A stretch of 57,325 nucleotides of DNA from a phage, in the NCBI GenBank assembly GCA_025497365.1, contig GCA_025497365.1_4955.1. One strand, given 5' to 3'. Below are positions 54,001 through 57,000 of the stretch, piece after piece; position 1 is the stretch's first letter, and each line of letters opens with the position of its first letter. The position numbers were made by a program.

Positions 54001-57000
54001 TCTTCGTGGTGATCTTGATTTTCAACGTGGGTTAGGTGTTCCCATCCGTTCCTGTGGTTATGATAAGTTATACGGTTTTCACCCCGTGTTCATTACCTTT
54101 AATCCTGTTGAGGCTATATCAATAATGGGTTATCGTGGTTCTGCTGATGAATGGTGTGTTGCTGTTATAAACGCTACTAATTTACAACATAAACCCGGTC
54201 GTTTTTCGTGGGAGTCAATCACTGATTATGTACCTGCTGATTGTATAAAACGTTTCGAACCGCTGACCAACTTCTTAAAATAATTCTTGACAGATTACCA
54301 ACCTTCTCCGATAATTAGCCTCAGTTAACACACATGAGGCTAAACACAAATGGCTAACATTAACTCCCTTCGCAAGCTATCTGATACCGATAAAACCAAC
54401 GTAAAACGTGGTAACGCGTATCGTATTGATCCGCGTATCATCAAGATTCGCCCAGGACATAACCCACGCGGTGTATTTACCGACAACTACTGGGAAACCG
54501 AAGCAGCACTGGCACACATTGAAAACTTTCGTCAGGCTTATACTAACGGTGATTTCGTTCCACCGATCGTGGTACAGGTTGTTGACGGTGTTCCGTATGT
54601 CCAGGATGGTGAGCATCGTTTACGTGGCGTGTTAGCAGCTATTGAAGCCGGGACGCCGATTCTGACAGTAGACGTTGTTGAATCGTCCGGTGACGAACTA
54701 CAACAGACCCTGACACTATTAAAAGGTAATGAGGGTAAACCGTGGTCACCCGTTGAACGTGCTGTTATTTACGGTCGTTTCCGTTCATACGGCATGAGTG
54801 TTGAGCAGATCGCTACACAGGTCGGTAAAACCGTCCAACACGTTTACGAACAACTGAATATTCTTGATATGCCACTGGAACTTAAACGTCGTATTCAGAA
54901 CGGTGAAATCAGCGCATCAGCAGCCATTCGCCAGTTTAAAGCAGGTGATAAAGAACCAGTAGTAACGCGTCGTCCGCCTGCTAAACTGGTACGGTCCGCA
55001 GTGGAAGCAATCCGTGGTGAATGGTCTGTAACCCGTTCGGAAGGTGGTAAAGTCCTGGTTGAACTTACCGCTGAACAGTTTGAAGCGTTAAAAGCACTGA
55101 AGGAGCACCAGTTATGAAAAACCGTAAAGCAAAGATTCTGTTAGTTCGTAGAAACGGTCCCGGCGTCTGGCAGTGGGTGAGACTCAGCAATCGACGAATG
55201 GGGTTAATGAAATATTACGGGATGATGGTTGGTGGTTTTTGCAAAAAGCCCAGCGCGGCGCAAAACCGCTGGAAAAACCACCTGCGTACTAAAGGAGACT
55301 AGTTTATGTCAGACAACTTAACATCAATTTACGGTACGTTGACCTGTCGTTCTAAATTTAAACCGTTGACAAAAGAAGAAGAACGTCAGTGTAAGTTCAA
55401 TAACAGTTTTCCCAGCGTTAATGAAAATCGTTGGATTGCCAAACTAACCGGGAGTAAGAAGAAATGACTATCCGACTGATGAATCCAACCGTTGCCCGTG
55501 ATATTAAACCAGGTGACAAGATTGAAGTATTTAACGAATGGTACTGGGTACGCTATATCAATTACCACGGGTCACAGATTACGCTTCGTTTACAACCGGA
55601 AGACGAACCGCTATCACCATTTTGCGAAAACGACCGCGTTGTGGTTACAGTACCAGAAGATCTAATGATTGATGTCGAATGTAACTAACAGGTTCCCTCG
55701 TAACGGTTTAAAATGGTCCGCACGAGATCTGGCGTTATTAAAAATTAATGCAGGAAAGATCAGTGCGGATGAAATAGCGTATTACCTTCGCCGGGACGTT
55801 GAAGCGGTGCACATTAAAGCGTCACGTCTCGGTATATCACTGGTAACCAATAAATGTAAACGTGGTCATGCGCGAGTTTACCAAAAAGGTAGATGGCGCT
55901 GTCCTGAGTGTAGAAAATTAAAAGGGTATTGAATATGACACCTGAACAATTCGCAACAGCAGCACACGGTGATCAACTTCGTAAGTACACCAATGACCCA
56001 TATGTTAACCACTGCCGGAACGTTGCTGAACTGGTTAAACGCTATGGTGGTACGCCGGATATGGTTACCGCTGCCTGGCTGCATGACGTCGTTGAAGATA
56101 CTCCCGTGACTGTGGGTGATGTGTGTTCGCAATTCGGTGAAACTGTGGCACGTTATGTTGATCAGCTTACTGATGTGAGTCGTCCACACCACGGCAACCG
56201 CGTTAAGCGTAAAGCACGGGACATCGACCATTTATCACGGGCTGAACCTGTGGTAAAAACCATAAAACTGTGTGATCTGCTGGATAACACCTCTTCAATT
56301 GTCCGACACGATCCGAAGTTTGCTGTAACATACCTGGCTGAAAAACAAATCATGCTTGTTCACCTGTCAGACGCCAGTAATCAGGAGTTATACGCGCTTG
56401 TTGAGCGTGAATTGTTTAAAGCCAAATACAAACTAACGAACGTCCAGTTAACCGCGTTTGACAAACACTACGACGCACTGGTTAAAGCGATGGGGGAGTT
56501 GTGATCATGAATAAAGCATCACCTGTAGAAATACGTAAATGTCTTGAAATGGCAAATAGTCTTGCACATGCCGGGATTAGATTTGTTCCTGTACCAGTAA
56601 CCAGTGATGATGAATTTAATTCGCTGGTTTCTCATTCTTACGGGATACTGGACAAAATAGCAGACGATTGTGATACGACTAACCGCCAGTTCGAAAGCCT
56701 CAGCAACCACAAACATCACTTCATCAACGGCACTTGCGTAGAGTGCCTGAAAAGTGAATAACTACCTGTTCATACTATTCATCAGTGCGCTCTATGTGGC
56801 GCACGTTTTCTATGAGGTGTACCGATGAGTTTGTTTCAATGTGAAAACTGTGGGTGTGTTGAAAATACAGCTCTGTCTTCTCAGGGGTTTAACGGTTTCT
56901 TTGAAAAATTATACGACTGGTCATATGCACCTGAAAGGAAAGGTAAACGATTATGTTCAGCGTGTGGACCTGTTAAATACAGTGATGGTAATAATACTGA

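What the first reader, a model, noticed from the sequence alone, without database searches (positions are those of the whole stretch)
55929..56504. SpoT/RelA-type HD hydrolase encoded by the phage
The product carries the HD motif pair characteristic of (p)ppGpp hydrolase domains without a synthetase domain, i.e. a small alarmone hydrolase. Such an enzyme could blunt the host stringent response or counter alarmone-synthesising defence toxins.
Basis: partly seen in the sequence, partly recalled or inferred. Interest (0 to 1): 0.55.

Follow-up and report, generated by a model that had tools for sequence, protein, structure and literature searches.

The report
Phage small alarmone hydrolase (PaSpo-type)
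This phage gene encodes a stand-alone RelA/SpoT-type hydrolase, a known kind of phage accessory enzyme that removes 3'-pyrophosphate groups from stress alarmones and from tRNA, so the finding is real but ordinary.

Summary
An intact ORF (best start ATG 55935, stop 56504, 189 aa) encodes a single-domain RelA/SpoT-homologue hydrolase. It matches Pfam HD_4 (5e-15) and the N-terminal hydrolase part of TIGR00691 (1e-20), and there is no synthetase domain. R16, H26, H50-D51, E54-D55, D114 and N118 are all present. An AlphaFold model (pLDDT 96.9) matches MESH1, bacterial small alarmone hydrolases (SAHs) and SpoT/Rel hydrolase domains.

The window is a 9NA/Sasha-like virulent siphovirus of E. coli. 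The closest characterised relative is the PaSpo SAH of Salmonella phage SSU5 (50% identity). In published co-expression tests that enzyme neutralised five toxic alarmone synthetases (toxSAS), including the tRNA-pyrophosphorylating CapRel.

The gene is an orphan:
- no synthetase or toxin neighbour;
- it sits in a mosaic slot of small genes after a ParB-like gene;
- it is absent from Sasha, Sergei and Solent;
- it is under purifying selection in the phages that carry it.

Homologues occur in 287 phage records. The most likely role is Mn2+-dependent 3'-pyrophosphohydrolysis that reverses toxSAS damage and/or lowers (p)ppGpp. The role during infection is inferred, not shown. Verdict: a new member of a known kind, of low to moderate interest.

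The parts
55935..56504 (+). Small alarmone hydrolase gene. It encodes a 189-aa, HD_4-only RSH hydrolase of PaSpo type. Catalytic residues are R16, H26, H50-D51, E54-D55, D114 and N118.
   Evidence: Comparison with Bas82 gives 18 synonymous against 3 non-synonymous codon changes.
55921..55926 (+). Shine-Dalgarno-like AAAGGG/AAGGG sequence 8 nt before the ATG at 55935. It supports the ATG over the TTG at 55929 as the start.
   Evidence: Read directly from the sequence. Orthologues are 189 aa long.
54287..54315 (+). Sigma-70-like promoter (TTGACA-17-GATAAT, 11 of 12) upstream of the ParB-like gene. It is the putative start of the co-directional, tightly packed gene string that contains the SAH gene.
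   Evidence: A promoter is annotated at the equivalent place in AVIO78A. This is a consensus match only; function is inferred.
54350..55117 (+). ParB-like gene. It is the conserved left border of the variable slot that holds the SAH gene.
   Evidence: It is conserved in Sasha gp77, Bas82_0082 and AVIO78A_091.
55114..55932 (+). Four small accessory genes of 62, 53, 74 and 87 aa between the ParB-like gene and the SAH gene. They include a DUF2737 protein and an HTH/zinc-ribbon protein. None carries a synthetase domain.
   Evidence: The first gene is 95% identical in nucleotides to Stx-converting phages and RCS47.
56507..56761 (+). Downstream DUF1382 small gene. Its start lies 2 nt after the SAH stop codon.
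56825..57163 (+). Homologue of Sasha gp80 (PHROG 11861). It is the conserved right border of the variable slot.
57170..57190 (.). Bidirectional terminator-like hairpin that closes the gene string.
   Evidence: Terminators are annotated at the equivalent place in Sasha and AVIO78A.

Best explanation
The gene encodes an active, stand-alone small alarmone hydrolase (SAH) of the PaSpo type. The proposed chemistry is a Mn2+-dependent attack on the 3'-pyrophosphate ester of ribose. H26, H50, D51 and D114 would bind the metal, E54-D55 would activate water, and R16 and N118 would hold the nucleotide.

The gene is probably transcribed by the host polymerase, as part of a string of small accessory genes that starts at a sigma-70-like promoter.

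The most likely benefit to the phage is counter-defence. The enzyme would strip the pyrophosphate that CapRel/FaRel2-type toxSAS immunity proteins add to tRNA 3'-CCA ends, and it would degrade (pp)pApp made by FaRel/Tas1-type enzymes. It would probably also hydrolyse (p)ppGpp, which would keep the infected cell out of the stringent response.

What is shown and what is inferred:
- Shown here: identity, an intact active site, the fold, orphan status, accessory distribution and purifying selection.
- Shown by others for the 50%-identical SSU5 enzyme: neutralisation of five toxSAS in E. coli, attributed to removal of the tRNA modification.
- Inferred: the same activity for this protein, its timing of expression, and any benefit during infection.
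For: Identity as an SAH:
- HD_4, the TIGR00691 hydrolase part and PHROG 990 all match.
- The catalytic set is invariant across a 56-sequence family alignment and also in E. coli SpoT.
- The AF2 model has pLDDT 96.9. All of the top 50 PDB fold matches are MESH1, SAHs or Rel/SpoT hydrolase domains, with TM-score 0.75-0.79 to MESH1.

Link to a characterised enzyme:
- It is 50% identical over 145 aa to SSU5 PaSpo, at 134 bits.
- SSU5 PaSpo neutralised CapRel, PhRel2, FaRel2, PhRel and FaRel (PMC7229694).
- It was used to allow expression of CapRelSJ46 (PMC9712102).
- SAH enzymes restore aminoacylation of pyrophosphorylated tRNA in vitro (10.1101/2021.04.30.441581).

Targets exist in the host group. 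CapRel systems from a Salmonella phage, Enterobacter and Klebsiella protect E. coli against coliphages.

Behaviour as an accessory gene:
- It is present in E. coli-infecting relatives and absent from Sasha, Sergei and Solent.
- Its neighbours vary, and none has a synthetase domain.
- Distant homologues also sit alone in a prophage and in phage-like contigs.
- Selection is purifying, with pN/pS about 0.05.

Base recognition. The motif R16-K17 matches MESH1 (R24-K25), which hydrolyses both (p)ppGpp and (p)ppApp, and SpoT also has the arginine. The ppApp-specific Aph1 has D24-K25 there instead.
Against: - No experiment exists for this protein or for any 9NA/Sasha-like phage.
- The published PaSpo tests used plasmid co-expression, not phage infection. 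I found no paper showing that a phage SAH overcomes CapRel or any other defence during infection.
- 50% identity does not guarantee the same substrate range.
- The carrier phage Bas82 showed no unusual robustness against the BASEL defence panel, but that text names only RM systems and Old (PMC11990801).
- The nearest public genome (OZ035775.1) has a 2-bp insertion that frameshifts the gene just before the HD motif. If that is real, the gene is dispensable in culture.
- The promoter and operon are consensus predictions only.
Confidence: 0.62

Rival explanations
1. The enzyme's main job is host takeover through (p)ppGpp. It would hydrolyse the host alarmone so that rRNA, tRNA and nucleotide synthesis and translation stay high during infection. 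Any toxSAS neutralisation would be a side effect. Biochemically this overlaps with the best explanation and differs only in the selected function.
For: - The protein aligns to the SpoT, Rel and MESH1 ppGpp hydrolase domains with all catalytic and base-contacting motif residues present.
- The arginine of the R-K motif is the one linked to guanine recognition in Rel; it is replaced by Asp in ppApp-specific Aph1.
- A 2026 preprint reports that the stringent response restricts phage, and that a phage portal protein blocks RelA/SpoT synthesis (10.64898/2026.01.27.700999). So there is selective pressure on phages to lower ppGpp.
Against: - Close relatives (Sasha, Sergei, Solent) do without the gene. 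That fits a host-specific counter-measure better than a general physiological need.
- E. coli already has SpoT.
- No ppGpp hydrolysis data exist for PaSpo-type enzymes in the papers I read. The documented phenotype is toxSAS neutralisation.
Confidence: 0.25
2. It is an immunity or antitoxin partner for a toxin encoded by the phage itself. That would resemble Aph1 next to MuF-fused (p)ppApp synthetases, or ATfaRel next to FaRel.
For: SAHs do serve this role elsewhere. Aph1 lies downstream of a MuF-fused (p)ppApp synthetase toxin in a temperate phage (PMC10083569). ATfaRel is an SAH antitoxin.
Against: - The flanking genes encode 53-112 aa proteins with no RelA_SpoT synthetase hit.
- Neighbours differ between the window, Bas82 and AVIO78A. 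They are unrelated to those in SSU5, a Burkholderia prophage and a metagenomic phage contig.
- The phage's MuF head protein is 319 aa, and its MuF domain ends at residue 307, leaving no room for a toxin domain.
- The Bas82 annotation lists no synthetase.
- The window was not scanned exhaustively for divergent synthetase domains.
Confidence: 0.04
3. Its relevant substrate is a non-alarmone phosphorylated nucleotide. Candidates are NADPH (as for MESH1 and XccSAH), pGpp, PAPS-like compounds, or an as yet unknown 2'/3'-phosphorylated immune signal.
For: - The best fold matches are human MESH1 bound to NADPH and to PAPS.
- MESH1 and XccSAH dephosphorylate NADPH (PMC9765508).
- SAHs are documented as promiscuous.
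Against: - The nearest characterised relative is PaSpo, not Mesh1; identity to MESH1 is only about 28%.
- I did not test whether the nicotinamide-riboside motif that makes MESH1 efficient on NADPH is present.
- No phage benefit from NADPH loss is known.
Confidence: 0.07
4. It is a decaying or non-functional passenger gene.
For: The closest public genome carries a frameshifting 2-bp insertion at the HD motif. The gene is also missing from several relatives.
Against: - In the window the ORF is intact with every catalytic residue.
- Orthologues in Bas82 and AVIO78A differ mostly at synonymous sites, 17-21 synonymous against 3-4 non-synonymous codons.
- The frameshift could equally be a sequencing error in an unannotated assembly.
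Confidence: 0.02

Closest known systems
PaSpo small alarmone hydrolase of Salmonella phage SSU5 (SSU5_099, YP_006906731.1)
   Same: Both are stand-alone, phage-encoded, HD_4-only RSH hydrolases from phages of Enterobacteriaceae. They are 50% identical over 145 aa (134 bits) and share all catalytic residues and the DLLDNTSSIV / DP-F--YLAEK motifs. Both sit among small accessory genes with no synthetase partner.
   Different: - The window protein is shorter, 189 against 213 aa.
- The C-terminal ~40 residues are unrelated in sequence, and SSU5 has an insertion after the conserved core.
- SSU5 is a 103-kb phage, whereas the window is a ~58-kb virulent 9NA/Sasha-like siphovirus.
- Activity has been tested for SSU5 PaSpo only (PMC7229694).
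Human and Drosophila MESH1 (PDB 3nr1, 5vxa, 9chy, 3nqw)
   Same: These are the best structural matches, with TM-score 0.75-0.79, rmsd 2.1-2.7 A over about 168 residues and 28% identity. The same metal and catalytic residues align: R24/R16, H35/H26, H61-D62/H50-D51, E65-D66/E54-D55, D122/D114 and N126/N118. MESH1 also detoxifies FaRel2 and restores pyrophosphorylated tRNA.
   Different: MESH1 is a eukaryotic housekeeping enzyme of a different SAH subfamily (Mesh1), with efficient NADPH phosphatase activity. Whether its nicotinamide-riboside motif is present here was not examined.
Hydrolase domain of E. coli SpoT and long Rel enzymes
   Same: The HD-domain fold and motifs are the same, with 29% identity over 119 aa to SpoT residues 30-147. 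TIGR00691 and NF008303 match the hydrolase part.
   Different: The window protein has no synthetase, TGS or ACT domains, and so none of the allosteric regulation of the long enzymes. It is not a recent copy of the host gene.
PbcSpo SAH of Salmonella phage PVP-SE1 (taken to be gp220, the only HD_4-like protein I found in that genome)
   Same: It is a phage-encoded orphan SAH that also neutralised all five toxSAS.
   Different: It is only distantly related: 30 bits, 36% identity over 73 aa. It belongs to a different subfamily.
Aph1 (p)ppApp-specific hydrolase of Bacteroides caccae (PDB 7smg)
   Same: It has the HD_4-type SAH fold and is prophage-encoded.
   Different: - The match is weak (E 0.0065 by sequence; TM-score about 0.5).
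- Aph1 lacks two helices and forms tetramers.
- It has D24 where the window protein has R16.
- It is paired with a cognate MuF-fused toxin.

Membership tests
RelA/SpoT homologue (RSH) hydrolase domain, Pfam HD_4 (PF13328) | A significant profile match above the curated threshold | tested here: met
   HD_4 scores 55.9 bits against a cut-off of 27.2, E 5.3e-15. TIGR00691 matches at 1.2e-20 over hydrolase positions 4-122.
RelA/SpoT homologue (RSH) hydrolase domain, Pfam HD_4 (PF13328) | Metal-binding and catalytic residues present: His, HD, ED, Asp and Asn of motifs HD2-HD5, plus the nucleotide-binding Arg of HD1 | tested here: met
   R16, H26, H50-D51, E54-D55, D114 and N118 align to MESH1 R24, H35, H61-D62, E65-D66, D122 and N126 and to E. 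coli SpoT. All are invariant in 56 family members, except D55, which is nearly invariant. The roles assigned to the residues come from established knowledge of MESH1 and RelSeq.
RelA/SpoT homologue (RSH) hydrolase domain, Pfam HD_4 (PF13328) | All-helical HD-domain fold matching solved RSH hydrolases | tested here: met
   The AF2 model has pLDDT 96.9 and pTM 0.92. All of the top 50 Foldseek PDB hits are MESH1, SAHs or Rel/SpoT hydrolase domains.
Small alarmone hydrolase (SAH) class | Hydrolase domain only, with no synthetase, TGS or ACT domains | tested here: met
   The protein is 189 aa and a single domain. HD_4 and HD are the only Pfam hits, and stop codons bound the ORF.
Small alarmone hydrolase (SAH) class | Mn2+-dependent hydrolysis of the 3'-pyrophosphate of (p)ppGpp, (p)ppApp or pyrophosphorylated tRNA | not testable with these tools
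   This needs purified protein and TLC, HPLC or aminoacylation assays.
PaSpo subfamily of SAHs (Atkinson 2011; Jimmy 2020) | Closer to PaSpo reference sequences than to the other SAH subfamilies | tested here: met
   The score is 134 bits (50% identity) to SSU5 PaSpo. It is 30 bits to the presumed PbcSpo of PVP-SE1, 54.7 bits in a different search (phmmer against the PDB) to MESH1, and 25 bits or fewer in that search to PaSAH, RelH and Aph1. The authors' own subfamily HMMs and tree were not available, so this is a similarity test and not their formal classification.
toxSAS-SAH toxin-antitoxin or toxin-immunity module (FaRel/ATfaRel, Apk2/Aph1) | The SAH gene is adjacent to a cognate synthetase-fold toxin gene in a conserved operon | tested here: not met
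   Neighbours are 53-112 aa with no synthetase hit. Neighbours are not conserved across carriers. The MuF protein has no toxin extension.
Phage counter-defence (anti-toxSAS) proteins | The gene restores phage plating on hosts that carry the defence system | not testable with these tools
   No infection data were found for any phage SAH. Only co-expression rescue by SSU5 PaSpo and PVP-SE1 PbcSpo has been reported.

The most novel reading that the evidence does not exclude
The SAH would be a broad-spectrum anti-immunity enzyme of a virulent coliphage. It would not bind or block a defence protein. It would enzymatically repair the damage, removing pyrophosphate from the tRNA 3'-CCA ends modified by CapRel-type fused toxin-antitoxin systems, and so allow infection of hosts that would otherwise abort it. 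This would be the first demonstration during infection that phage SAHs work as 'damage-reversal' counter-defences. It would also explain why orphan SAHs are scattered through hundreds of phage genomes.
Probability: 0.4. Interest if true: 0.55.

Novelty: new member of a known kind. Interest (0 to 1): 0.25.

Why it matters
Phage-encoded SAHs are common: 287 phage records have a homologue of this protein. Their benefit during infection has still not been shown in the literature I could search.

This gene lies in a small, genetically tractable E. coli phage lineage. One carrier, Bas82, is in the BASEL collection, and natural relatives lack the gene. That makes a clean test system available for two questions:
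- Do phage SAHs defeat CapRel/toxSAS immunity?
- Do they suppress the stringent response?

As a sequence finding it adds only one more member to a known family.

Tried and rejected
- PADLOC models gave no hit for the SAH or its neighbours. This is expected, because PADLOC models defence proteins, not counter-defence proteins.
- I looked for a cognate toxin. Pfam and PHROG scans of the seven flanking genes and of ten larger ORFs, including the MuF head protein, found no synthetase domain. An all-against-all BLAST of SAH neighbours from the window, Bas82, AVIO78A, SSU5, a Burkholderia prophage and a metagenomic phage contig found no partner conserved beyond the close relatives.
- I checked whether SSU5 PaSpo has a solved structure. 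It does not.
- Literature searches for infection-level evidence of SAH counter-defence, and for any study of this gene in Sashavirus/Nonanavirus phages, found none. The BASEL paper states that no recognisable supplementary locus exists in KarinMuster.
- No tRNA genes are in the window, so the phage does not use tRNA replacement as an alternative answer to tRNA-targeting defences.
- The antisense ORF 55878..56231 (117 aa) and the other overlapping ORFs are by-products of the coding frame and were rejected.
- The terminator-like hairpin inside the gene (56393-56409) is weak and was treated as chance.
- I did not obtain direct residue alignments to Aph1 or T. thermophilus Rel. The R16-versus-D24 argument rests on motif correspondence through MESH1 and SpoT.
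Full report
**1. The observation**

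The ORF reported at 55929..56504 (+) is real. The TTG at 55929 overlaps the TGA of the upstream gene. An ATG at 55935 is preceded by AAGGG at a spacing of 8 nt. It also gives the 189-aa length of the annotated orthologue Bas82_0088 and of protein cluster P0001. I therefore take 55935..56504 as the gene.

The product matches:
- Pfam HD_4 (PF13328) at 5.3e-15, 55.9 bits against a cut-off of 27.2;
- PHROG 990 'metal-dependent phosphohydrolase' at 1.8e-38;
- the hydrolase part (positions 4-122 of 687) of TIGR00691 spoT_relA at 1.2e-20.

Sequence hits among solved structures are Lmo0812, human and fly MESH1, the hydrolase domains of Rel/SpoT, and bacterial small alarmone hydrolases. This is far beyond chance. 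There is no synthetase domain: the protein is a single 189-aa domain.

**2. Active site and fold**

The alignment to MESH1 pairs these residues:

| Window protein | MESH1 |
|---|---|
| R16 | R24 |
| H26 | H35 |
| H50-D51 | H61-D62 |
| E54-D55 | E65-D66 |
| D114 | D122 |
| N118 | N126 |

The D66K mutant entries (5vxa, 9chy) confirm the register, because they show VEKT where the window protein has VEDT. The same residues are invariant in an alignment with the E. coli SpoT hydrolase domain (29% identity over 119 aa). They are also invariant, or for D55 nearly invariant, in a 56-sequence family alignment.

The second HD dipeptide (H125-D126) is not a canonical motif.

An AlphaFold2 model built on that alignment is very confident (pLDDT 96.9, pTM 0.92). 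Its best PDB matches are MESH1 (TM-score 0.75-0.79). The remaining hits are P. aeruginosa SAH, C. glutamicum RelH, a Leptospira SAH, SpoT, Rel N-terminal domains and Aph1.

**3. The genome and the gene's place in it**

The window is a 9NA/Sasha-like siphovirus. It is 99.9% identical to Sashavirus BDX09P1 (OZ035775.1) and about 95% identical to Escherichia phage KarinMuster (Bas82) over 55000-57325.

The SAH gene lies in a co-directional, tightly packed string of small genes. A ParB-like gene (54350..55117) and a homologue of Sasha gp80 (56825..57163) bound the string. A strong sigma-70-like promoter match (54287-54315) precedes it and a bidirectional terminator-like hairpin (57170-57190) follows it.

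The slot is mosaic:
- Sasha, Sergei and Solent have only one or two small genes there and no SAH.
- Bas82, PDP46, AVIO78A, PJ16, 536P12 and the Salmonella phages SP-062 and SP069 carry the SAH at 91-98% amino-acid identity.
- The genes immediately next to the SAH differ between the window, Bas82 and AVIO78A.
- One neighbour (55114..55302) is 95% identical in nucleotides to Stx-converting phages.

Where the gene is present it is under purifying selection. There are 18 synonymous against 3 non-synonymous codon differences to Bas82, over 132 synonymous and 435 non-synonymous sites. That gives pN/pS of about 0.05.

The nearest public record has a 2-bp TG insertion after window position 56079. It would frameshift the gene just before the HD motif. 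That is either an assembly error or a real loss.

**4. The wider family**

The homology search returned 1885 protein clusters at E <= 1e-5. Most are about 167 aa, HD_4-only, and come from metagenomes.

Two contexts were inspected. A Burkholderia pseudomallei chromosomal copy lies in a prophage, next to a phage lysozyme gene. A metagenomic copy lies on a 76-kb contig filled with small unannotated genes. Neither has a synthetase neighbour.

By tblastn, 287 phage records carry a homologue. These include SSU5, jumbo phages of Pseudomonas and Erwinia, and phages of Rhizobium and Caulobacter. This is therefore a common orphan accessory gene of phages.

**5. Closest characterised relative and mechanism**

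The best characterised relative is the PaSpo SAH of Salmonella phage SSU5, at 50% identity over 145 aa and 134 bits. By contrast, the presumed PbcSpo SAH of PVP-SE1 (gp220) scores only 30 bits.

The published evidence is:
- Jimmy et al. 2020 showed that SSU5 PaSpo and PVP-SE1 PbcSpo neutralise all five tested toxSAS: CapRel, PhRel2, FaRel2, PhRel and FaRel (PMC7229694).
- The SAHs MESH1 and ATfaRel restore aminoacylation of pyrophosphorylated tRNA in vitro (10.1101/2021.04.30.441581).
- CapRel systems from a Salmonella phage, Enterobacter and Klebsiella defend E. coli against coliphages. Plausible targets therefore exist in this host group.

The R16-K17 motif resembles MESH1, which acts on both guanosine and adenosine alarmones, rather than the D24-K25 of ppApp-specific Aph1; SpoT also has the arginine. 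I therefore expect activity on guanosine as well as adenosine substrates. This is an inference.

My best explanation, at confidence about 0.6, is a Mn2+-dependent 3'-pyrophosphohydrolase. Its selected role would be to reverse toxSAS-inflicted damage, with (p)ppGpp hydrolysis as a likely additional or alternative benefit.

**6. Rivals**

- *Stringent-response suppression as the main role.* This is biochemically compatible. It gains plausibility from a 2026 preprint showing that the stringent response restricts phage. The patchy distribution among close relatives fits a host-specific counter-measure better.
- *A self-immunity or antitoxin role.* This is largely excluded. No neighbour has a synthetase domain, neighbours are not conserved, and the MuF head protein lacks a toxin extension. 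I did not scan every ORF in the window.
- *A non-alarmone substrate such as NADPH.* This cannot be excluded, because SAHs are promiscuous.
- *A decaying gene.* The intact active site and the purifying selection argue against this.

**7. Novelty and verdict**

The kind is known. Phage-encoded orphan SAHs were described and tested in 2020. Orthologues of this gene are already annotated in GenBank as 'metal-dependent phosphohydrolase', 'polyphosphate hydrolase', or (wrongly) 'RelA/SpoT family (p)ppGpp synthetase'.

I found no study of the gene in 9NA/Sasha-like phages. I also found no evidence from phage infection for any phage SAH. The BASEL paper notes no recognisable supplementary function in KarinMuster.

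The finding is a correct identification of a new member of a known kind. Its interest is low to moderate and lies mainly in the tractable test system: an E. coli phage in a public collection, with natural relatives that lack the gene.

Noticed in passing
window 56079/56080, compared with OZ035775.1 (locus L012): The closest public genome, Sashavirus BDX09P1 (99.9% identical), has an extra TG here (CTG-CAT becomes CTG-TG-CAT). This frameshifts the SAH gene immediately before the catalytic HD motif. The window copy is intact. The insertion is either an assembly error in an unannotated record or a natural knockout.
   Followed up: partly
window 36731..38188 (-): A 485-aa tailspike-like protein has a TSP1/Gp66 N-terminal domain (PF18668) and a C-terminal glycerophosphodiester phosphodiesterase domain (GDPD, PF03009, 2.4e-25). 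This enzymatic receptor-binding protein may cleave phosphodiester-linked surface glycans.
   Followed up: no
window 53533..53928 (+): A 131-aa protein of the YAcAr / SLOG family (PF10686, 1e-19; PHROG 289 'GTP-binding domain') lies about 2 kb upstream of the SAH gene on the same strand. I recall the SLOG fold as a nucleotide-ligand-binding fold, and did not check this here. It might be another nucleotide-signal-related accessory gene.
   Followed up: no
window 55114..55302 (+): This 62-aa gene of unknown function (PHROG 1380) is about 95% identical in nucleotides to genes in many Stx-converting lambdoid phages and in phage RCS47. That points to recent exchange between this virulent siphovirus lineage and temperate phages.
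   Followed up: no
window 27632..28543 (-): A 303-aa DUF723 + T5orf172/MUG113 (GIY-YIG-like) endonuclease gene sits on the opposite strand inside the tail module, between the tail chaperone genes and the tape-measure gene. It looks like a homing-endonuclease insertion.
   Followed up: no
window 52856..53536 (+), and Bas82 annotation: A DNA methyltransferase gene (PHROG 757) lies here in the window, and the Bas82 annotation lists three genes called 'DNA methyltransferase' elsewhere in the genome. The BASEL paper nevertheless reports marked sensitivity of Bas82 to RM systems.
   Followed up: no
whole window: ARAGORN finds no tRNA genes. Several GenBank annotations of the SAH orthologue are misleading: PDP46 calls it a 'RelA/SpoT family (p)ppGpp synthetase', and in AVIO78A the 'polyphosphate hydrolase' label is on the neighbouring 77-aa gene.
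   Followed up: partly
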